DNA of 64,000 bases from Candidatus Levyibacteriota bacterium (GTDB taxonomy: Bacteria > Patescibacteriota > Microgenomatia > Levybacterales > GWA1-39-11): contig JAGORM010000001.1 of NCBI GenBank assembly GCA_018062815.1, forward strand, positions 160,774 to 224,773. Reading direction: 5' to 3'. Numbering within the stretch: the first letter of the stretch is position 1; each line of letters opens with the position of its first letter. Made by a program: the position numbers and the translations under genes. Under the pieces are notes generated by a model that searched no databases, was not told the origin of the DNA, and was given only the letters and a program-made list of their open reading frames with translations. Below are positions 34,715 to 55,159 of the stretch, in pieces.

Positions 34715-35182
34715 ATGGATAATAATTCTATGGAAAAATTTGAAGAAAAGGTAATACAAGTTTCTCGAGTTTCAAAGAAAACAAAAGGTGGAAATAAGGT
34801 CAGATTTGCCGCATTGGTAGTTGTAGGAGACAGGCGAGGAAAAGTTGGGATTGGGTTGGGTAAATCTGGAGATGTAGCACAGGCAATCGCAAAAGCTGTA
34901 TCCTATGCTAAGAGAAGGATGATTTTTGTGCCTATACATAATGAAACAATCACACAGCAAATCAGAGTAAAAAAAGGTGCTGCTCAAGTGCTTTTGAAGC
35001 CTGCGCCTAAAGGTACCGGAATTATTGCTGGCGGTGCAATTAGAAGTGTTGTGGAAGTAGCTGGAATTAGAAATATATCTTCAAAGATTCTAGGATCGTC
35101 AAATAAAGCAGGAAATGCACAAGCAACCTTTGAAGCCCTAACACAACTCGCTCAAGATTATGAGACAAGGGAGAACAATTAA
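34715..35182 (+). CDS. rpsE: 30S ribosomal protein S5.
   Basis: dsRBD-like N-domain plus S5 C-domain (…IIAGGAIRSVVEVAGI…). Confidence 0.95.
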   Translation: MDNNSMEKFEEKVIQVSRVSKKTKGGNKVRFAALVVVGDRRGKVGIGLGKSGDVAQAIAKAVSYAKRRMIFVPIHNETITQQIRVKKGAAQVLLKPAPKGTGIIAGGAIRSVVEVAGIRNISSKILGSSNKAGNAQATFEALTQLAQDYETRENN

Positions 35183-35183
35183 T

Positions 35184-35624
35184 ATGCAGTTACATAATCT
35201 ACCAAAAATAACAACAAAAGGATTAAGGCGTGTAGGCCGTGGACATGGATCAGGACGGGTTAAAACTTCAGGACGGGGAACAAAGGGTCAAAAAGCAAGA
35301 AGAGATATAAAGCTTCATTTTGAGGGCGGTGCACTTCCTTTAATAAAACGTTTGCCCTTCTTGAAAGGTAAGGGAAGAAATAAAACAATCAATCACAATC
35401 CTATCGTATTAAATGTTAAAGACTTTAAGGGTCTTCCTGAGAAAACAGTGATTGATTTTGATTTTCTTAAAAAATATAAGCTGATAGACACAGACAAAGC
35501 GAAAAAATATGGAGTGAAGATACTTGGCGAAGGAGAGTTAACAATTCCATTAATAGTAAATTTTCCAGTTTCAAAAATAGCTAAGACAAAGATAGAAAAA
35601 GCGGGCGGGACAGTTTCCGTATGA
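35184..35624 (+). CDS. rplO: 50S ribosomal protein L15.
   Basis: [39 protein letters not shown]... canonical L15. It begins 2 nt after the rpsE stop, so there is no rpmD in between. Confidence 0.94.
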
Positions 35625-36907
35625 ATCTTTTTTTAAAACTTTTTAGAAATAGCGTAAGAGATAGGGAAATTCGAAAGAAAATCCTTATTACGCTTTTTCT
35701 GCTCCTCATATTTAAGTTGTTTGCGCATATACCAGTTTCTGGTGTAAACATAGCACAGCTAAAAAATCTTTTTGCTCAAAATCAACTTCTAGGTTTTTTG
35801 GACATTTTTTCTGGGGGAACACTTTCAAATTTTTCCATTTTAGCATTAGGATTAAATCCATATATTTATGCATCAATAGTTTTACAGCTTCTGACAATCG
35901 TTTATCCTAAGCTTGAGGCTCTTGCTAAAGAAGGAGAGTACGGGAAGCAAAAAATAAATCAATATACACGCTATATAACGATTCCTCTTGCAATAGTTCA
36001 GGGAATAGGAATGTACGCTCTTTTAAGAAATCAAAATATTGTTTCAAGTCTTTCGCCGTTAGAAATTGTTTCTTTTATAGCTACATTAACCTGTGGGACA
36101 ATGATTGCTATGTGGATTGGTGAACTTATCTCCGAGCAAGGTATAGGAAACGGAATTTCAATTCTTATTTTTGCAGGAATTGTTGGGCAAATACCGGTGA
36201 TGCTTATGCAGACAATTACAACAATCACTGCTGAACAATTTTTAAATATCGGCATTATTGTAATCTCTGCTGTTCTTCTTGTAGCAGCCGTTGTCGCAAT
36301 TAATGAGGCTGTAAGACGTGTCCCTATTTATTATGCAAAACGGGTTAGGGGTTCTAAAATGCTTGGTGGTCAATCCACCCATTTGCCGTTAAAATTAAAT
36401 CAAGCAGGAGTTATCCCTATAATTTTTGCTGTTTCGTTGGTTTTACTTCCTTCAGTTGTAGCCAACTTTTTGATGACTACACGTAATAATACACTTTCTC
36501 TCATAGGAACGAATATCTCAACTTATCTTGATCCCAACGGAACAATATATAATGTTTTATACTTCTTGTTAGTTGTAGGGTTTACCTATTTTTATACTGC
36601 GGTCGTTTTTAACCCGTCAAAAATAGCGGAGGAAATCCAAAAGTATGGGGGATTTATCCCAGGAGTAAGGCCGGGTAAGCCTACAGCCTCATTTTTGAAT
36701 TTTATTGTAACAAGAATAACTCTTGCTGGGGCAGTATTTTTAGGTATAATTGCAGTATTGCCGAATATAGGACGTGTGATAACAGGGAACCAGACACTTC
36801 TCATAGGAGGAACAAGTATCTTAATTGTTGTATCAGTTGTCATTGAAACTGTTAAAATACTAGATACTCAGATGGTAACAAAGAGTTATGAAAAGTTTTT
36901 AAAATAA
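35621..36907 (+). CDS. secY: Preprotein translocase subunit SecY.
   Basis: 10-TM topology. Conserved SecY segments (…GGTSILIVV…). Confidence 0.95.
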
Positions 36908-36915
36908 ATATTTTT

Positions 36916-37467
36916 TTGACATCTATGAAACTTATTTTAATAGGAATACAAGGAAGCGGTAAGTCTACACAAGGGAATATACTTTCCGAGAGGCTACATA
37001 TTCCATATCTTTCTTCTGGACATATATTCCGCGAAATGGCAAAAGAAAAAACTCCCCTAGGTCGTTATATTAAAGAAACCATGAACGCGGGCTTTTTGAT
37101 TCCGGATGATAAGACGCTAGAGATTGTTATAGAGTACTTAGGACGCTCTGAATATCAGGATGGATACATTCTAGATGGATTTCCTAGAACTGTTCCTCAG
37201 GCTGAAGCATTTCCAAACGGTGTAGAGAAAGTAATTTATCTTAAAGTGACAGATAAAGAGGCCTTATGGAGATTAGCTGGTCGTGATGAAGAGGGGGTAC
37301 GTGAGGACAACACATTAAAGGCTATATTAAAGCGTATAAATGAGTTTCATACAAAAACAGAACCAGTAATTGAATATTATAGAGAAAAAGGGAAACTGCT
37401 TGAAATAGATGGTGAAAGACACATAGAAGAAATCGCCTCTGAGATACTTTCAAATATCCAGAAATAA
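36916..37467 (+). CDS. adk: Adenylate kinase (short type, no zinc LID).
   Basis: P-loop GIQGSGKSTQ, NMP-binding YILDGFPRTVPQA, LID RxDD region. Confidence 0.88.
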   Translation: MTSMKLILIGIQGSGKSTQGNILSERLHIPYLSSGHIFREMAKEKTPLGRYIKETMNAGFLIPDDKTLEIVIEYLGRSEYQDGYILDGFPRTVPQAEAFPNGVEKVIYLKVTDKEALWRLAGRDEEGVREDNTLKAILKRINEFHTKTEPVIEYYREKGKLLEIDGERHIEEIASEILSNIQK

Positions 37468-38037
37468 ATGACAAAACCTCAAATTTTAGGAATCACAGGT
37501 GCTTTTGGAAGCGGAAAATCTACTGCTTCTGATTTCATTGCTTCATTCGGATACAAAAAAGTAAGCTTATCGAAATTTTTAGAGGATGAACTTTTATCAA
37601 ATGGTGAAACTGCTATTACTCGTGAAAAACTTCAAGATCTGGGTAATTCTTGGCGTAATGAGTACGGAAGTGGTGTATTAGGAAAGAAAACAGCGGAGTA
37701 TATTTTAAAAAATAATCTTGAAAAGGTGGTTGTTGAGGGGATTAGAAATATTGAGGAGATTCATGAGCTAGAAAAAGTAGGAACACTGACCTTAATTGCT
37801 CTTATGGTTGATAGGAGTCTTAGGTATAAGAGGCTAGAAAAATTAACGAGAAGAGAAAAATTAACTCCTGAATTGTTTGAGAAATTAGATGCAAGAGATT
37901 TGGGAGTTGGGGAGAACGAATCCGGGCTACAAACAGCTCTGTGTATTGCGTTATCAGATATATATATAAACAATAATACAGACGAGGAAGATCTGCGAGT
38001 TAAATTAAGAAAAGTTATAGAGGGGATAGAGAAATAG
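37468..38037 (+). CDS. P-loop nucleotide kinase of the archaeal-type cytidylate kinase / dephospho-CoA kinase-like family.
   Basis: ILGITGAFGSGKST Walker A at the N-terminus. ~190 aa. Position after adk mirrors the archaeal secY-adk-cmk order. Exact substrate not determinable. Confidence 0.45.
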   Translation: MTKPQILGITGAFGSGKSTASDFIASFGYKKVSLSKFLEDELLSNGETAITREKLQDLGNSWRNEYGSGVLGKKTAEYILKNNLEKVVVEGIRNIEEIHELEKVGTLTLIALMVDRSLRYKRLEKLTRREKLTPELFEKLDARDLGVGENESGLQTALCIALSDIYINNNTDEEDLRVKLRKVIEGIEK

Positions 38038-38051
38038 CAAAATTTTTTAAT

Positions 38052-38624
38052 ATGCAAAATATATACATTTTAATTGGGCCACCACTATCAGGGAAAGAAA
38101 CACAGGGAGAACTGTTGGAGACATCATTGGGAGGTATTCCAAGATTTTCGATGGGACATTTAATTCGTGAGGCAAGAAATAAGGATAAAAAATTTGAAGA
38201 TGCATACCAAGAATATAGTATGCGAGGGAAGCACTTGCCAAACAATATAAAATTTCCTCTTTTAGCGGATAAGATGAATAAGGCAAGTCGGTCTGGTTTT
38301 ATTCTGGATAATTTTCCCGCGTCGGCGGAGGACGTGGAGTACTTAGAGAAATATCTTGTAGGAAAAGAATTGAATATTAAAACCGTAATAGTTTTAAATA
38401 TTTCAGAAGATGAAATGAGGAAACGTTTTGAAATTGCAAGAAATAGACGTGGACGTGCTGACGATACAATTGAAAACATTCGCGATAGGCGGGAGATACA
38501 AGACGCCGATCGTATTGCAGTACTTAATCATTATAAAAACTTGGGGATAGTTAAGGTAATTAACGGAGAACAGTCTGTTGAGATGGTTCATCAAGATATA
38601 TTAAAAGAGGTTGATCGGTCATAG
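38052..38624 (+). CDS. Divergent adenylate-kinase-family paralog (possible UMP/CMP kinase or pseudo-kinase).
   Basis: Adk-like fold markers (FILDNFP, NRRGRADD LID motif). However, the P-loop is GPPLSGKETQ (versus Adk GxPGxGKGTQ), and the conserved Arg of the GFPR motif is Ala. Confidence 0.55.
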   Translation: MQNIYILIGPPLSGKETQGELLETSLGGIPRFSMGHLIREARNKDKKFEDAYQEYSMRGKHLPNNIKFPLLADKMNKASRSGFILDNFPASAEDVEYLEKYLVGKELNIKTVIVLNISEDEMRKRFEIARNRRGRADDTIENIRDRREIQDADRIAVLNHYKNLGIVKVINGEQSVEMVHQDILKEVDRS

Positions 38625-38634
38625 ATTTCTAAAA

Positions 38635-39414
38635 ATGAAAAATATTATAAAGACAAGTAATGAGATTGATATTATGGCAAAGGCAGGAAAGATGCTTGGG
38701 GTTGTTTTGGCAGAGACTTTAGAATTGATTAAACCCGGAATAACAGAATTGGAGCTTGACGAATTTGCGGATAAAAGAATAGTAGAGTTGGGTGGTTTTC
38801 CAGGATTTAAGAAGGTTGATGGGTATAAGCATGCTATTTGTGTAGCTACTAATGATATTGTGGTACACGGAATACCGAAAAAAAGAATTTTACGAGAGGG
38901 GGATATTATTGCTGTAGATGCCGGAGTATTCCTTGACGGGTTTCACTCTGATATGGCAGAAACGGTTATTGTGGGAAAAGCTAAAAACAGTAAAATTTAC
39001 ACCTTTTTAGAATCTGGGAAAAAAGCTATGTATGCAGGTATTATGCAGGCGAAGCCAGGTAATCGTGTTGGAGATATTTCAAAAGCCATACAGGAAATAG
39101 TGGAAAAGCAGGGTGGATATTCAGTGGTGCATTCCCTTGTAGGTCACGGTGTAGGAAGAGAACTTCATGAAGATCCTCAAGTTCCGGGGTATTTACGCGG
39201 GAGAATAGAGAAGACTCCGCTTCTTGTTCCGAATATGACTATTGCAGTTGAGGTAATTTACAATATGGGTAATCAAGAGGTTGAATATGAGGGATCAGAT
39301 GATTGGACAATCGCCACAAAAGATCATTCTTTGTCTGGGGTTTTTGAGAGAACAATTGTTATAACAGACGCAGGGCCAAAGCTTTTAACTCACTTTCCGG
39401 GCGAGCAACTATAG
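38635..39414 (+). CDS. map: Methionine aminopeptidase type I.
   Basis: Pita-bread fold motifs (…HGIP…DAGV…HSLVGHGVGRELHEDPQVP…). Confidence 0.92.
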   Translation: MKNIIKTSNEIDIMAKAGKMLGVVLAETLELIKPGITELELDEFADKRIVELGGFPGFKKVDGYKHAICVATNDIVVHGIPKKRILREGDIIAVDAGVFLDGFHSDMAETVIVGKAKNSKIYTFLESGKKAMYAGIMQAKPGNRVGDISKAIQEIVEKQGGYSVVHSLVGHGVGRELHEDPQVPGYLRGRIEKTPLLVPNMTIAVEVIYNMGNQEVEYEGSDDWTIATKDHSLSGVFERTIVITDAGPKLLTHFPGEQL

Positions 39415-39510
39415 CCTTGATATGAGGCTTAGTATCTGATAGAATATACTAATACTTAAGCTCTCTTAGAGGAATCTCAAGGGAGAATTTTTGAGTTTAG
39501 GGATATACGG

Positions 39511-39732
39511 ATGGCGCATCAAGGATCAATAGAAGTAGATGGAATTGTAAAAGAAGTTTTGCCCAACACTTTATTTAGGGTTGAAATAGAAGGTGGGAGG
39601 GTGGTTCTTTGTCACCTTTCAGGTAAGATGAGGATTCATTTTATAAAAATTTTACCAGGGGATAGAGTACGGATCGAAATGACGCCATACGATAAAACAA
39701 AGGGAAGAATTACTTTTAGGCATAGAAGTTAA
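39511..39732 (+). CDS. infA: Translation initiation factor IF-1.
   Basis: S1-like OB fold. …[31 protein letters not shown]…. Confidence 0.95.
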
Positions 39733-39787
39733 AAATTTACTAGCGAGTGATTAGTAAAAACTATTCACCGTTTTTCTATAAAAAAAT

Positions 39788-40180
39788 ATGAGAGTAGCAG
39801 GTGTAAATGTACCGGATGGAAAAAGAGCAGATATAGCACTTACCTATATTTATGGAGTAGGTCGTTCAAACGTGAAAAAAATTTTAGTAAAAGCTAAAAT
39901 TGACCCTGAGCGAAGAATAAACACTTTATCTGAGGAAGAGTTAACTCAAATCCAGAAAGCGCTTGATTCAATTAAAATTGAAGGAGATCTAAGGGGGGAA
40001 ATATTTGAGGATATTAAACGTCTTAAAAACATAAGTTCTTATAGAGGACTAAGACACGCAAGAAATCTTCCAGCACGAGGTCAAAGAACTCGTTCTAACG
40101 CCCGCACAAAACGTGGAAAGAGAGTTACTATTGGAGCGATTAAAAAAGAGGTTGCAGAAAAAATGGGAATTAACAAGTAG
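39788..40180 (+). CDS. rpsM: 30S ribosomal protein S13.
   Basis: MRVAGVNVPDGKRADIALTYIYGVGRS... canonical S13. Confidence 0.95.
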   Translation: MRVAGVNVPDGKRADIALTYIYGVGRSNVKKILVKAKIDPERRINTLSEEELTQIQKALDSIKIEGDLRGEIFEDIKRLKNISSYRGLRHARNLPARGQRTRSNARTKRGKRVTIGAIKKEVAEKMGINK

Positions 40181-40198
40181 GATTGAGCAATAAATAAT

Positions 40199-40597
40199 AT
40201 GGCAAAAGTACAAGCAAAAACAACAAAAACAAAAAAGAAAAAAATGGTGACAACATCATTAGGGCGCGTATATGTGAGTACCACGTTTAATAACACAATT
40301 GTTACTGTAACAAATGAAAAAGGCGATGCACTCTCATGGAGTTCATCTGGAAACATGGGTTACAAGGGGACAAGAAAATCTACTCCTTTTGCAGCGACTC
40401 AAGCAGTTGATGAGGCATTAAAACGAGCAAGAGAAGCCGGCCTTCAATCAGTTGAGGTATACATTAAAGGTCCTGGTGTTGGGCGTGATGCAGCTCTTCG
40501 TGCAGTTAGAAATTCTGGTCTTACAATATCAATGATAGCAGACGTAACACCTATTCCACACAATGGAGTAAGGGCAAAGAAAAAAAGAAGAGTTTAG
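40199..40597 (+). CDS. rpsK: 30S ribosomal protein S11.
   Basis: Canonical S11 (…GRVYVSTTFNNTIVTVT…GPGVGRDAALRA…). Confidence 0.95.
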   Translation: MAKVQAKTTKTKKKKMVTTSLGRVYVSTTFNNTIVTVTNEKGDALSWSSSGNMGYKGTRKSTPFAATQAVDEALKRAREAGLQSVEVYIKGPGVGRDAALRAVRNSGLTISMIADVTPIPHNGVRAKKKRRV

Positions 40598-52971: not shown

Positions 52972-53877
52972 TTGGAATTTGATCTATATATAATTATAGG
53001 CTATAATCCTTATATGCATGAGGTAAGACCTTCTACAAAGGCGTTAGGTTCGAGTTATTTTGCTGAATTTAGGCGAGGAGTCATGCACCCCAAAAAAAAT
53101 GAGGCCAGATCTCTTAATCTTCTAGCTCACTTCAAAGAACCACTATTGCCGGCGTCATTAGATCGATTTAATAAGCTGACTATTGAAGAGCAAAGAATAT
53201 ATATTGCTGCAATGGGTGGAGTTGAAAGAATGAAATCCATAAGAGAACAAGGTTTTCCTATCCCCAGAGACTTTAAGGAGACAAATCTTGATCATGTCCA
53301 AGATGCTTTAGGGATTGCACGCGAATACTATGAAAAGTTTCCCAGACTAAGTGAATTTATTGAATTTCCCGTTGTGCAAGACGATTTGATAGTGCATGAT
53401 ATTGCTGAGTCAAACATTGCGATAGATGATAGAACGCCTGTAAATAGAACTGCGCAAGATGAAAAAGCAAAAAGACTTGAACCGTATGCTGGGATAAGGT
53501 TTCTTCGAAGAATTTCTGATCCGGAACAGAGAGAGTATTGGAAGGATATTTATGTAAAACATAATTTAAAAGACCCAAATAATCTAAATGTTCAGATGGC
53601 AGTCTTTATTGATAAAGCTCAAGGAACAACAAGGGCTGCAGAAATTGCTTTTAATACACATAACGTATCGGACGAGGCGACTTTTATTAAAATGAGACTA
53701 CATTTATGGGAAACAATTCCTAGAATGATGGAGCCAGCAATGAACTTATTGATTGGATTGCCTACTCAAGAATCACGAGAAGATATGAGAAAAATAGTTA
53801 TGCATGAATTAGGATTCTTAGAAAGGTATGGACCAAAGGATATCGTAAGAACGATTAAAAAAGGATTTGCTGCATGA
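52972..53877 (+). CDS. HD-domain phosphohydrolase (YfbR-like 5'-deoxynucleotidase-type).
   Basis: H…HD…D pattern (…LDHVQDAL… / …LIVHDIAESNIAIDDRTP…). Start uncertain (alternative Met at 53014/53083). Confidence 0.45.
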   Translation: MEFDLYIIIGYNPYMHEVRPSTKALGSSYFAEFRRGVMHPKKNEARSLNLLAHFKEPLLPASLDRFNKLTIEEQRIYIAAMGGVERMKSIREQGFPIPRDFKETNLDHVQDALGIAREYYEKFPRLSEFIEFPVVQDDLIVHDIAESNIAIDDRTPVNRTAQDEKAKRLEPYAGIRFLRRISDPEQREYWKDIYVKHNLKDPNNLNVQMAVFIDKAQGTTRAAEIAFNTHNVSDEATFIKMRLHLWETIPRMMEPAMNLLIGLPTQESREDMRKIVMHELGFLERYGPKDIVRTIKKGFAA

Positions 53878-54410
53878 AAAAAAATAACTGGTTTGTTATA
53901 ACAGGCGGTCCTTCTTCTGGTAAGTCTACAACTATAAGACTTCTTTCTAGAAAAGGTTATGTTACTACACAGGAAATAGCAAGAGAGTTTATTGAATCTC
54001 AATTTAAATTAGGGTTAAGTATGACGGAGATAAGAAAAGATCAGCTTGGTTTTCAGATGCAAATTTTGGCATTGCAAATGAAATTAGAGGAGGGTTTAGC
54101 TTCAGGACAAATTACATTCCTAGATCGATCCATTCCTGATATTATGGCATACTTAATTTTCAGAACATGTCCCATCCCCGATGCTTATGTAAAAATATAT
54201 GAAGCATCCAAGCATAACTATAAAAAAGTTTTTATATTAGACAGCTTATCATTTGAAGAAGACCCTGTTAGGGTGGAAAACGCAAAAGAAGCAGAGGAAA
54301 TACGTTTGTTGCTTGAAAAAAGCTATAAAGACTTAGGAATAGATATTGTAAAAGTTCCTGTAATGGGAGAAGAGAAACGAGTAAGTTTTATACTTGAGCA
54401 CGTTAACTAA
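53874..54410 (+). CDS. AAA_28-type P-loop NTPase (putative nucleoside/nucleotide kinase).
   Basis: Walker A ITGGPSSGKSTT at the N-terminus. ~180 aa. Overlaps the HD gene stop (coupled). Confidence 0.45.
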   Translation: MKKNNWFVITGGPSSGKSTTIRLLSRKGYVTTQEIAREFIESQFKLGLSMTEIRKDQLGFQMQILALQMKLEEGLASGQITFLDRSIPDIMAYLIFRTCPIPDAYVKIYEASKHNYKKVFILDSLSFEEDPVRVENAKEAEEIRLLLEKSYKDLGIDIVKVPVMGEEKRVSFILEHVN

Positions 54411-54415
54411 ATAAC

Positions 54416-55159
54416 TTACCTTGTAAGTCTAGTTATATTTTCAGGAATTGTTGATAAATTTGGAGATAGACCATTTTTTCCCATCTTGCTATCAATTTCC
54501 TCTCTTGTTGAAAGAAAAATATTAAGCCCTAGATTAAGATACTTTTCAGGTATGTAGCTTTCTGATCCAGGGATAGTTGTAGCTACAGTTACCTTTAATG
54601 GTGATGGTTTTTCATCTGGTGCATGGAAGTCACCATTCCTCATTCCTTGCCATAGCAAAGGAAGTCCTTTTTCTCGTCCATCAAGCATAGCACCTGCAAA
54701 ATCATCTGCAGTACCGATAAAAACCTCATCTGGTTTATGAGTTAAAATTCTTCCCGTACACATTATGCATGGCTCAAGACTTGTGAATAGTTTTTTTTCT
54801 TCCATTTCATGTGGAGCTTGTCTTATTTTTAGAACCCTGTCCTTGTAGGTATCTTCTCCTCGAGCTAAGCTTTCTACTGCGTTTATTGTATCCTGTTCTG
54901 CATGAAGAACTGTATTTTTTCTGCTGAGTATTCCATTTCTTCCTCCTATCACATATTCAGTTCCATTTACCCTATAAACATATATAGCTCCAACTCCGTA
55001 ATTACCCTCTGAGTTTGCAATTAAAGCTTGTTCGTTTGCAAGAGCAAGGTATTCTTGTGCGGAATAGGACTTAGCTTCTTCTTTCATTTTTTCAGTTTCT
55101 TGACGGAAGCGTGAAATAGTTAAAGAAAAGTCAGATGTTAAAGGTATTTCATGTGTCAT
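54416..55159 (-). CDS. CDA-fold (cytidine/deoxycytidylate-type) nucleotide deaminase with N- and C-terminal extensions.
   Basis: Zinc motifs HAE … PCxxC (VLHAEQDTI … SLEPCIMCTGRIL). 247 aa, longer than TadA. Confidence 0.65.
   Translation of the reverse strand: MTHEIPLTSDFSLTISRFRQETEKMKEEAKSYSAQEYLALANEQALIANSEGNYGVGAIYVYRVNGTEYVIGGRNGILSRKNTVLHAEQDTINAVESLARGEDTYKDRVLKIRQAPHEMEEKKLFTSLEPCIMCTGRILTHKPDEVFIGTADDFAGAMLDGREKGLPLLWQGMRNGDFHAPDEKPSPLKVTVATTIPGSESYIPEKYLNLGLNIFLSTREEIDSKMGKNGLSPNLSTIPENITRLTR

What the first reader, a model, noticed from the sequence alone, without database searches (positions are those of the whole stretch)
36916..38624. Three tandem P-loop NMP-kinase genes after secY (adk, Cmk/CoaE-like, divergent adk paralog)
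The canonical secY-adk-map order is expanded to secY-adk-kinase2-kinase3-map. All genes are separated by 0-15 nt. Kinase2 has an N-terminal GITGAFGSGKST, resembling archaeal-type cytidylate kinase or dephospho-CoA kinase. The position after adk mirrors the archaeal spc operon. Kinase3 is an adk-family paralog. This may be a compact nucleotide-monophosphate kinase island substituting for missing cmk/pyrH-type genes in a reduced genome.
Basis: partly seen in the sequence, partly recalled or inferred. Interest (0 to 1): 0.5.

Follow-up and report, generated by a model that had tools for sequence, protein, structure and literature searches.

The report
Nucleotide-kinase island in ribosomal operon
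In a tiny-genome Levybacteria bacterium, three small nucleotide-kinase genes sit between secY and map: a normal adenylate kinase, an orphan archaeal-type kinase that is not dephospho-CoA kinase, and a remodelled adenylate-kinase copy that in related genomes swaps places with cytidylate kinase.

Summary
Three tightly packed P-loop kinase ORFs lie between secY and map: K1 36916-37467, K2 37468-38037 and K3 38052-38624. The window is from a Candidatus Levybacteria (CPR) genome. About 90 related loci share the layout secY-adk-(adk2)-(K2)-[cmk or K3]-map.

- **K1** is an ordinary short-form adenylate kinase.
- **K2** is neither CoaE nor archaeal Cmk; it falls below every curated cutoff for those families. 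It belongs to the orphan UPF0200/SSO1041, PRK08356-like kinase family, which is also the N-terminal "kinase" domain of anti-phage dCTP deaminases. Relatives are fused to dCMP deaminase or dUTPase, or sit beside RNR, ThyA and Tmk. I infer a pyrimidine (deoxy)nucleotide kinase. Some lineages lack it, so it is dispensable.
- **K3** is a Levybacteria-specific ADK-fold paralogue under strong purifying selection. Its ATP and LID residues are intact, but the acceptor pocket is rebuilt: the AK Arg88 position is Ala or Gly and the Gln92 position is Asp. It always occupies the slot that bacterial cmk holds in sister lineages, and the two were never found in the same island. I infer that it does the same job as Cmk.

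I could not test whether pyrH, gmk, tmk or a second cmk exist elsewhere in the genome. This is a new variant of known enzyme kinds and of moderate interest.

The parts
35621..36907 (+). secY, upstream anchor of the island
   Evidence: 428-aa ORF. Its orthologues in relatives carry PF00344 SecY.
36916..37467 (+). K1: housekeeping short-form adenylate kinase (adk). The true start is probably the ATG at 36925.
   Evidence: Pfam ADK 121.4 bits; NCBIfam adenylate kinase NF001381 166 bits. It has the canonical motifs GIQGSGKSTQ and DGFPRTVPQA and the LID arginines. It is the first gene after secY in every related locus.
37468..38037 (+). K2: stand-alone UPF0200/PRK08356-like P-loop kinase. It is the same family as the N-terminal kinase domain of DcdV-type dCTP deaminases. 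Inferred pyrimidine (d)NMP kinase.
38052..38624 (+). K3: Levybacteria-specific ADK-fold paralogue with a remodelled acceptor site. Inferred functional replacement of cytidylate kinase.
38611..39414 (+). map (methionine aminopeptidase), downstream anchor. The probable start is the ATG at 38635.
   Evidence: ORF; its orthologues carry PF00557 Peptidase_M24. It lies directly after K3 or cmk in every locus.
39511..39732 (+). infA, where the alpha-operon part continues
   Evidence: ORF; orthologues carry PF01176.

Best explanation
The three genes are a lineage-specific nucleotide-kinase insert in the spc/alpha ribosomal super-operon of Candidatus Levybacteria. It is co-transcribed with secY and map. 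The general layout is secY-adk-(adk2)-(K2)-[cmk | K3]-map.

**K1** is the housekeeping adenylate kinase (AMP + ATP = 2 ADP).

**K3** descends from an old duplication of a bacterial short-form adenylate kinase and is 27% identical to K1. It keeps the ATP-binding P-loop lysine and all the LID arginines. Its phosphate-acceptor pocket is rebuilt: Thr31->Met, Leu58->His, Gly85->Asn, Arg88->Ala/Gly and Gln92->Asp (E. coli AK numbering, taken from my own knowledge). It fills exactly the slot that bacterial-type cytidylate kinase fills in sister lineages, and each island holds one or the other, never both. The most likely reading is that K3 is an ATP:(d)CMP (possibly also UMP) phosphotransferase that has displaced Cmk.

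**K2** is a stand-alone member of the UPF0200/SSO1041, PRK08356-like kinase family, not CoaE. At family level it is tied by gene fusion and neighbourhood to dCMP deaminase, dUTPase, ribonucleotide reductase, ThyA and Tmk. It most likely phosphorylates, or reversibly dephosphorylates, a pyrimidine (deoxy)nucleoside mono/diphosphate. That would link (d)CMP and (d)UMP pools in an organism that lives on salvaged nucleotides. K2 is accessory, because some lineages lack it or carry it split.

**What is shown:** the gene content, the family assignments, the residue conservation, and the slot alternation.

**What is inferred:** the substrates of K2 and K3, and that cmk is absent elsewhere in K3 genomes.
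For: **ORFs and spacing:**

**Organism:** K2 is 100% identical to an NCBI Levybacteria protein.

**K1:** canonical AK motifs and scores.

**K3**
- The family search returned 119 homologues, about 115 of them at 45% identity or more, followed by a drop from 144 to 51 bits.
- In 111 sequences the ATP and LID residues are invariant. The R88 position is Ala in 91 and Gly in 20. The Q92 position is Asp in 105 and Asn in 6. His61 and Asn87 are invariant.
- HMMER's alignment to M. tuberculosis AK places DNFPASAED opposite DGYPRSVEQ.
- Slot alternation: in loci anchored on K2, the gene before map is K3 in 14 and bacterial cmk (PF02224, 239 bits) in 19. No locus has both.
- 50 further metagenome loci anchored on K3 all have K3 directly before map, with no cmk within 3.5 kb.
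- Three loci anchored on cmk are all in the island with no K3.
- Trees from flanking genes intersperse the K3 and cmk types, so several independent switches or losses occurred.
- The third slot is always filled, whereas K2 is absent in 9 loci anchored on K3 and in one anchored on cmk, and is split in L086.

**K2**
- Family assignment.
- DPANN homologues at 36-39% identity are fused to dCMP deaminase (PF00383, 82.6 bits). They sit next to RNR, dUTPase-Nudix, Tmk, ThyA, thioredoxin and NrdR.
- Of the 23 longest proteins among the top 150 family representatives, 13 carry dCMP deaminase, 2 dUTPase, 1 DCD, 2 ADK and 1 Cmk.
- A K2::ADK fusion protein exists, P0367.
- The same kinase-plus-deaminase architecture is required for dCTP/dCMP deamination in phage defence.
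- Archaeal CoaE-like P-loop proteins lack DPCK activity (PMC6650551).
Against: - No biochemical data exist for K2 or K3.
- K3 lacks the arginine (AK Arg88) that, from my own knowledge, binds the acceptor phosphate in characterised AK and UMP-CMP kinases. Ordinary NMP-kinase chemistry is therefore not guaranteed.
- K3 scores below every NCBIfam cutoff, including the UMP-CMP kinase family model at 100 bits against 208.
- The fold search cannot separate AK from UMP kinase.
- Absence of cmk elsewhere in K3 genomes was not shown. The cmk search returned 7979 hits, of which only 120 were listed.
- In the DPANN clusters Tmk is present, and in Levybacteria cmk sits beside K2, so K2's own substrate is not pinned down.
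- In the defence proteins the kinase-like domain may act as a nucleotide-binding or regulatory module rather than as a kinase.
- In other DPANN loci the neighbour of K2 is an Obg/YchF-like GTPase, which points to a different kind of role.
- The trees are neighbour-joining without support values.
Confidence: 0.5

Rival explanations
1. K2 is a dephospho-CoA kinase (or an archaeal-type cytidylate kinase) that happens to sit after adk. K3 is just a redundant adenylate-kinase copy.
Against: - CoaE scores 18.2 bits against a cutoff of 27, and only the P-loop (residues 6-34) aligns. No NCBIfam CoaE or archaeal Cmk model hits K2 at E<=0.1.
- Archaeal CoaE-like P-loop proteins TK1334 and TK2192 were assayed and have no DPCK activity.
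- The family's fusions are with dCMP deaminase and dUTPase, not with CoA enzymes.
- K3 has lost the AK residues for the AMP phosphate (Arg88) and for adenine (Gln92) in all 111 members examined, so it is not a redundant AMP kinase.
Confidence: 0.1
2. K3 is not equivalent to Cmk. It is a kinase or ATPase with a different acceptor, for example a nucleoside, another NMP, or a non-nucleotide substrate, or it is a regulatory or ribosome-associated ATPase. Under this reading, K3-type genomes either keep cmk elsewhere or do without it.
For: The acceptor-phosphate arginine is lost and the pocket is wholly remodelled. K3 scores below all curated cutoffs. Absence of cmk elsewhere is unproven. The gene lies in a ribosomal operon.
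Against: - K3 and cmk replace each other one-for-one at the same slot in about 90 loci, with repeated switches across the tree.
- The slot is never empty, whereas K2 can be lost.
- Every Levybacteria-type cmk whose context was examined lies in this island.
- The ATP-site and LID arginines typical of phosphotransfer to a phosphate acceptor are invariant.
- An Asp at the Gln92 position could accept the cytosine amino group (inference).
Confidence: 0.25
3. K2 is a nucleotide-sensing or regulatory P-loop module rather than a metabolic kinase. One version is a remnant or relative of DcdV-type defence proteins. Another is a translation- or ribosome-linked factor.
For: K2's best defence-library hit is the dCTPase kinase-like domain, at 75 bits. 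In DcdV the domain is required, but its kinase chemistry has never been shown. In four DPANN loci the next gene is an Obg/YchF-like GTPase. K2 is dispensable in some Levybacteria.
Against: - K2 has no deaminase domain and lies in a housekeeping operon, not a defence island.
- It sits between adk and cmk or K3, and elsewhere it is fused to ADK or Cmk domains.
- Its many invariant arginines in NMP-site-like and LID-like positions, and the AMP bound in the SSO1041 crystal entry title, fit an NMP kinase.
Confidence: 0.15

Closest known systems
Bacterial short-form adenylate kinase (for example M. tuberculosis Adk, PDB 1p4s)
   Same: K1 is a regular member. K3 shares the fold, the P-loop, the Arg36 equivalent and the LID motif R..GRxDD...R, and is 27% identical over its full length.
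   Different: K3 has DNFP[A/G] in place of DG[FY]PR, Asp in place of the adenine-reading Gln, and His and Met in the base pocket. These changes are fixed across the whole K3 clade.
Eukaryote-type UMP-CMP kinase of the ADK family (TIGR01359; PDB 1tev, 1qf9, 1ukz)
   Different: K3 scores 100 bits against a cutoff of 208. It is closer to bacterial AKs by profile score. It lacks the conserved acceptor arginine that, from my own knowledge, these enzymes keep.
Bacterial cytidylate kinase Cmk (PF02224)
   Same: It occupies the identical genomic slot, directly upstream of map and after adk and K2, in sister Levybacteria. Its inferred role is the same.
   Different: It is a different P-loop kinase family. 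K3 gives no PF02224 hit.
UPF0200 protein SSO1041 (PDB 3lw7/3h0k) and NCBIfam PRK08356. These are archaeal CoaE-like orphan kinases; I infer that they belong to arCOG01045.
   Same: These are K2's best sequence and structure matches. The alignment runs the full length and shares motifs.
   Different: Identity is only 25%, and the PRK08356 score is far below its cutoff. K2 is bacterial and sits in a ribosomal operon. The function of the archaeal proteins is itself unknown, and DPCK activity has been excluded for TK1334 and TK2192.
Anti-phage dCTP deaminase / DcdV (P-loop kinase domain plus deoxycytidylate deaminase domain)
   Same: K2 matches the kinase-like domain. DPANN homologues of K2 have the same kinase-plus-deaminase architecture.
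   Different: K2 has no deaminase domain, is 189 aa rather than 530-630 aa, and is in a housekeeping context rather than a defence context.
Archaeal spc operon tail (secY-adk-...-cmk)
   Same: The gene order is the same: adk followed by a CMP kinase after secY. The archaeal order comes from my own knowledge and was not tested here.
   Different: The cmk in Levybacteria is the bacterial type. map and infA follow it, as in bacteria.

Membership tests
Adenylate kinase (PF00406 / NCBIfam adk) - K1 | Pfam ADK score above the gathering cutoff; P-loop GxxGxGK[GS]T; DGFPR..Q NMP-site motif; LID arginines | tested here: met
   121.4 bits against a cutoff of 26.8. K1 has GIQGSGKST, DGFPRTVPQA and R..GR....R.DNT...KR. 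The NCBIfam equivalog score of 166 is slightly below its cutoff of 187.
Adenylate kinase (PF00406) - K3 | Domain-level match to the ADK model | tested here: met
Adenylate kinase (functional AMP kinase) - K3 | The acceptor-phosphate arginine (E. coli Arg88) and the adenine-reading glutamine (Gln92) | tested here: not met
   The Arg position is Ala in 91 and Gly in 20 of 111 members. The Gln position is Asp in 105 and Asn in 6 of 111. All NCBIfam adk equivalogs score below cutoff.
UMP-CMP kinase family, eukaryote type (TIGR01359) - K3 | Score at or above the curated cutoff | tested here: not met
   100.3 bits against a cutoff of 207.6.
Bacterial cytidylate kinase (PF02224) - K3 | Sequence membership | tested here: not met
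   K3 gives no PF02224 hit at E<=0.1. Only the genomic slot is shared.
Dephospho-CoA kinase CoaE (PF01121 / NCBIfam CoaE) - K2 | Score at or above the gathering cutoff over the whole domain | tested here: not met
   18.2 bits against a cutoff of 27, covering residues 6-34 only. No NCBIfam CoaE model hits at E<=0.1. PDB CoaE chains match only the P-loop.
Dephospho-CoA kinase CoaE - K2 | Enzymatic DPCK activity | not testable with these tools
   Archaeal CoaE-like P-loop proteins TK1334 and TK2192 lacked this activity in vitro (PMC6650551). I infer, but did not show, that they belong to K2's family.
Archaeal-type cytidylate kinase (TIGR02173 / PF13189) - K2 | Any significant match | tested here: not met
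   K2 gives no hit to either model at E<=0.1.
UPF0200 / SSO1041-like kinases - K2 | Full-length sequence and structure similarity to SSO1041 | tested here: met
PRK08356 (NF006226) - K2 | Score at or above the equivalog cutoff | tested here: not met
   52.5 bits against a cutoff of 189. The alignment nevertheless runs the full length, 5-186 of K2 against 6-192 of 195 profile positions. K2 is a related subfamily, not an equivalog.
Anti-phage dCTP deaminase (NF041025 / PADLOC dCTPase) - K2 | N-terminal kinase-like domain | tested here: met
   46.8 bits over profile positions 3-207 of 437. 75.4 bits over positions 156-332 of 630.
Anti-phage dCTP deaminase - K2 | C-terminal zinc deaminase domain; defence-island context | tested here: not met
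   K2 is 189 aa with no deaminase domain. It lies inside the ribosomal operon.
Phage-type dNMP kinase (PF21448 DNMK / phrog_139) - K2 | Match to the family models | tested here: inconclusive

The most novel reading that the evidence does not exclude
K3 would be a new class of (d)CMP/UMP kinase. It would have evolved from adenylate kinase inside the CPR, would work without the otherwise universal acceptor-site arginine, and would have displaced Cmk repeatedly.

K2 would reveal the long-unknown activity of the near-universal archaeal CoaE-like orphan kinases (UPF0200 / arCOG01045-like). That activity would be a pyrimidine (deoxy)nucleotide kinase feeding or draining the dCMP-deaminase / thymidylate branch.
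Probability: 0.3. Interest if true: 0.65.

Novelty: new variant of a known kind. Interest (0 to 1): 0.48.

Why it matters
CPR bacteria live on salvaged nucleotides, so it matters which kinases they keep and where. Three points follow.

1. K3 and Cmk alternate at one chromosomal slot. This gives an in-situ case of one enzyme fold replacing another, together with an ADK-fold protein that dispenses with a residue thought essential. A few enzyme assays and a complementation test would settle it.
2. K2 places a member of an orphan kinase family in a very telling context. Archaeal representatives of that family (as I infer the relationship) were shown not to be dephospho-CoA kinases and remain unassigned. 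K2 sits between adk and cmk, and its relatives are fused to dCMP deaminase, dUTPase or ADK. That narrows the candidate substrates for the whole family, including the kinase-like domain of DcdV-type anti-phage deaminases.
3. Public annotations of K2 homologues as "dephospho-CoA kinase" and of K3 homologues as "adenylate kinase" are probably wrong. They would distort metabolic reconstructions of these genomes.

Tried and rejected
- **K3 as a decaying duplicate.** Rejected. 111 homologues keep 30 or more invariant positions, including the ATP and LID residues.
- **Testing whether K3 genomes carry cmk elsewhere by matching contig lengths in a cmk family search.** Inconclusive. There were 7979 hits and only the top 120 were listed, all island-type Levybacteria cmk. 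None lay on a known K3 contig, but the list is too shallow to rely on.
- **Literature searches** for UPF0200/SSO1041, for CPR nucleoside monophosphate kinases, for cytidylate kinase in Patescibacteria, and for arCOG01045 follow-ups. None found a functional study. The CPR metabolism paper and MjCyc added nothing specific. The search on missing archaeal guanylate kinase gave nothing usable.
- **Taxonomy of the nearest non-Levybacteria K2 relatives through cluster names.** Mostly unnamed; only one Patescibacteria and one Aenigmarchaeota label appeared.
- **A single ancient replacement of cmk by K3.** Not supported. The two types are interspersed in trees built from flanking genes.
- **Internal promoters or terminators within the island.** None above the shuffled background.
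Full report
**1. Observation**

The window holds three consecutive same-strand ORFs at the stated coordinates:
- K1, 36916-37467, 183 aa
- K2, 37468-38037, 189 aa
- K3, 38052-38624, 190 aa

They lie between secY (35621-36907) and map (38611-39414). Spacers read from the sequence are 8, 0 and 14 nt. K3 and map overlap by 14 nt, or are 10 nt apart if map starts at the ATG at 38635. Relatives of K1 begin MK[IL]ILIG, so the real K1 start is probably the ATG at 36925.

The promoter and terminator scan of 35000-40500 found no more sites than shuffled sequence. The genes therefore look co-transcribed with the spc/alpha ribosomal operon.

**2. Source organism**

K2 and K3 are 100% identical to NCBI proteins from a Candidatus Levybacteria MAG, on a 250,695-bp contig. 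GC content is about 36%. No L30 gene lies between S5 and L15, which fits a CPR bacterium as far as I know.

**3. K1**

K1 scores 121 bits on Pfam ADK and 166 bits on NCBIfam adenylate kinase NF001381. It has the motifs GIQGSGKSTQ and DGFPRTVPQA and the LID arginines. It is the first gene after secY in every related locus. It is an ordinary short-form adenylate kinase.

**4. K2: family assignment**

- Only the generic AAA_18 model passes its cutoff. CoaE scores 18.2 bits against a cutoff of 27 and covers only the P-loop. K2 does not hit Cytidylate_kin2 or archaeal Cmk.
- The informative matches are NF006226 (PRK08356) at 52.5 bits over the full length and the anti-phage dCTP deaminase model NF041025 at 46.8 bits. 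PADLOC dCTPase scores 75.4 bits over profile positions 156-332 of 630. phrog_139, a dNMP kinase family, scores 54.8 bits.
- The only solved relative is Sulfolobus SSO1041, annotated UPF0200 and 'AdkA-like, bound to AMP'. It gives E 1e-10 with K2 alone and 2e-18 with the family profile.
- The Levybacteria K2 alignment has 40 invariant columns. They include the P-loop, TR..LQ..GN..R, RN..E, and an arginine-rich LID-like stretch R..R..RL....RRE. This looks like a site for a phosphorylated acceptor.

The exhaustive representative search found 6453 family representatives at E<=1e-3. Most are stand-alone proteins of about 190 aa.

**5. K2: context at family level**

- A genome-contig scan returned about 30 Levybacteria loci. 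It also returned homologues at 32-39% identity in Woesearchaeota, Pacearchaeota and Nanoarchaeota and in one Saccharibacteria contig.
- Three DPANN homologues are 341-344 aa proteins carrying a C-terminal dCMP deaminase domain (PF00383, 82.6 bits).
- In L039 the fusion lies in the cluster RNR - fusion - dUTPase::Nudix - Tmk - ThyA - thioredoxin. In L037 it follows NrdR and RNR.
- Among the 23 longest proteins in the top 150 representatives, 13 carry dCMP deaminase, 2 dUTPase, 1 a DCD-like domain, 2 ADK and 1 Cmk.
- P0367 is a K2::ADK fusion. Its ADK half is 35% identical to K3 and 33% to K1.
- The kinase-plus-deaminase architecture is the one described for DcdV and the anti-phage dCTP deaminase. 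In those proteins both domains are needed for dCTP/dCMP deamination.
- Shimosaka et al. showed that the archaeal CoaE-like P-loop proteins TK1334 and TK2192 (arCOG01045) have no dephospho-CoA kinase activity and remain unassigned (PMC6650551). I found no later study.
- That these proteins are K2's family is my inference. It rests on the UPF0200 and PRK08356 matches and on the N-termini encoded by the published primers.
- In four other DPANN loci the gene after the K2 homologue is an Obg/YchF-like GTPase. That association is unexplained.

My reading is that K2 is not CoaE. It is most likely a pyrimidine (deoxy)nucleotide kinase, and its exact substrate is open.

**6. K3: sequence features**

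- K3 scores 77 bits on Pfam ADK. On NCBIfam its scores for adk (113 bits) and for the UMP-CMP kinase family (100 bits) are nearly equal, and both are below cutoff.
- The homologue search returned 119 proteins. About 115 are at 45% identity or more, and the score then drops from 144 to 51 bits. All that carry a taxon name are Levybacteria.
- In an alignment of 111 members, the P-loop G/K/T, the Arg36 equivalent (R39), R125, R133, R135, D137, D138, R146 and Q150 are invariant.
- The AK motif DG[FY]PR..Q is replaced by DNFP[A/G]..[D/N]. The Arg position is Ala in 91 and Gly in 20 members. The Gln position is Asp in 105 and Asn in 6.
- His61 is invariant at the AK Leu58 position. Met34 stands at the Thr31 position in 100 of 111 members.
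- The motif also recurs in 45 of the 50 metagenome loci.

**7. The island in relatives**

I annotated related loci by phmmer, using the window's own proteins as references, and took Pfam families from the encoding-contig tables. The layout is always secY-adk-(adk2)-(K2)-X-map.

- In loci anchored on K2, X is K3 in 14 and bacterial cmk (PF02224, 239 bits) in 19.
- In 50 loci anchored on K3, X is always K3, with no cmk nearby.
- In three loci anchored on cmk, cmk is in the island with no K3.
- No locus has both K3 and cmk, and the slot is never empty.
- K2 is missing in nine K3 loci and in one cmk locus, and is split into two ORFs in L086.
- A third, different ADK paralogue (adk2, motif GFILEGGFR) is inserted after adk in several lineages.

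Neighbour-joining trees from the flanking genes L15, secY, map, infA and S13 intersperse the K3 and cmk types. The K3 tree and the cmk tree each roughly follow that tree. This points to long coexistence with differential loss, or to repeated swaps. Either history implies that the two genes are interchangeable.

**8. Mechanism proposed**

- K1 makes ADP from AMP.
- K3 uses ATP, since its P-loop lysine and LID arginines are intact. It phosphorylates (d)CMP, and perhaps UMP, in a pocket where Asp94 could accept the cytosine amino group. Another basic residue would substitute for Arg88; candidates are Arg147, Arg154, His61 and Lys67.
- K2 interconverts a pyrimidine (d)NMP and (d)NDP.

Steps that are shown: the family assignments, the residue conservation, the slot alternation, and the fusions and neighbourhoods. 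Steps that are inferred: every substrate, the compensation for Arg88, and the absence of cmk elsewhere in K3 genomes.

The attempt to test that absence was inconclusive. The cmk search gave 7979 hits, of which only the top 120 were listed. I could not check for pyrH, gmk, tmk or coaE genome-wide. Apart from the island, the window holds one other kinase-like gene, an AAA_28/dNK-like gene at 53874-54410.

**9. Comparison with the known, and verdict**

- K1 is a known enzyme.
- K3 is a member of the ADK superfamily. It fails the functional definition of an AMP kinase and the curated UMP-CMP kinase threshold. It works like Cmk by genomic logic, but it is not a Cmk family member.
- K2 is a member of the UPF0200/PRK08356-like orphan family. 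It is not a member of CoaE, of archaeal Cmk, or of the complete dCTP-deaminase defence proteins.
The island idea and the cmk substitution hold. The CoaE and archaeal Cmk readings of K2 do not.
- Novelty: a new variant of known kinds.
- Interest is moderate. The finding offers two directly testable enzyme assignments and a functional clue for an orphan family that is widespread in archaea.

Noticed in passing
window 53874-54410 (+) and 54416-55159 (-): There is a second kinase-plus-deaminase pairing in the window. A 178-aa AAA_28 P-loop protein (107 bits, with a weak 29-bit dNK match) is convergent with a 247-aa cytidine/dCMP-deaminase-like protein (PF00383, 39 bits). It may be another nucleotide-salvage module.
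   Followed up: partly
window ~32490 (+); gap 39733-39787: rpmJ (L36, [37 protein letters not shown]) is not between infA and rpsM, where only 55 nt are available. It lies upstream of rplE instead. Relatives L005 and L047 keep L36 after infA.
   Followed up: partly
window 34715-35624: No L30 gene lies between S5 and L15, and those two ORFs overlap. As far as I know, this loss is characteristic of CPR bacteria.
   Followed up: no
L004:3033-3998, L009:5081-5992, L010, L023:5115-5768, L048, L088: A third, different ADK-family paralogue (adk2, 209-307 aa, motif GFILEGGFR, Pfam ADK 32-62 bits) is inserted after adk in some Levybacteria. In one lineage it is followed by a 110-aa ORF with no Pfam match. 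Its function is unknown.
   Followed up: partly
L009-L013, L016, L017, L019, L022, L026, L028-L033, L035 (genome contigs): Many MAG records titled 'uncultured Gammaproteobacteria bacterium' carry Levybacteria-type spc operons with K2 homologues at 50-64% identity. The record titles look taxonomically wrong.
   Followed up: no
L044:2819-4597: A Woesearchaeota contig carries three tandem K2-like genes. The second and third are highly diverged, at 24-28 bits to K2.
   Followed up: no
L040, L041, L042, L043: In DPANN-type contigs the stand-alone K2 homologue is directly followed by an Obg/YchF-like GTPase (MMR_HSR1, YGR210-like and TGS domains). In L043 a Nudix gene lies between them. This conserved pairing is unexplained.
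   Followed up: partly
L086:942-1511: In one K3-type metagenome contig, K2 is split into two short ORFs scoring 62 and 92 bits. This suggests a frameshifted or decaying K2.
   Followed up: no
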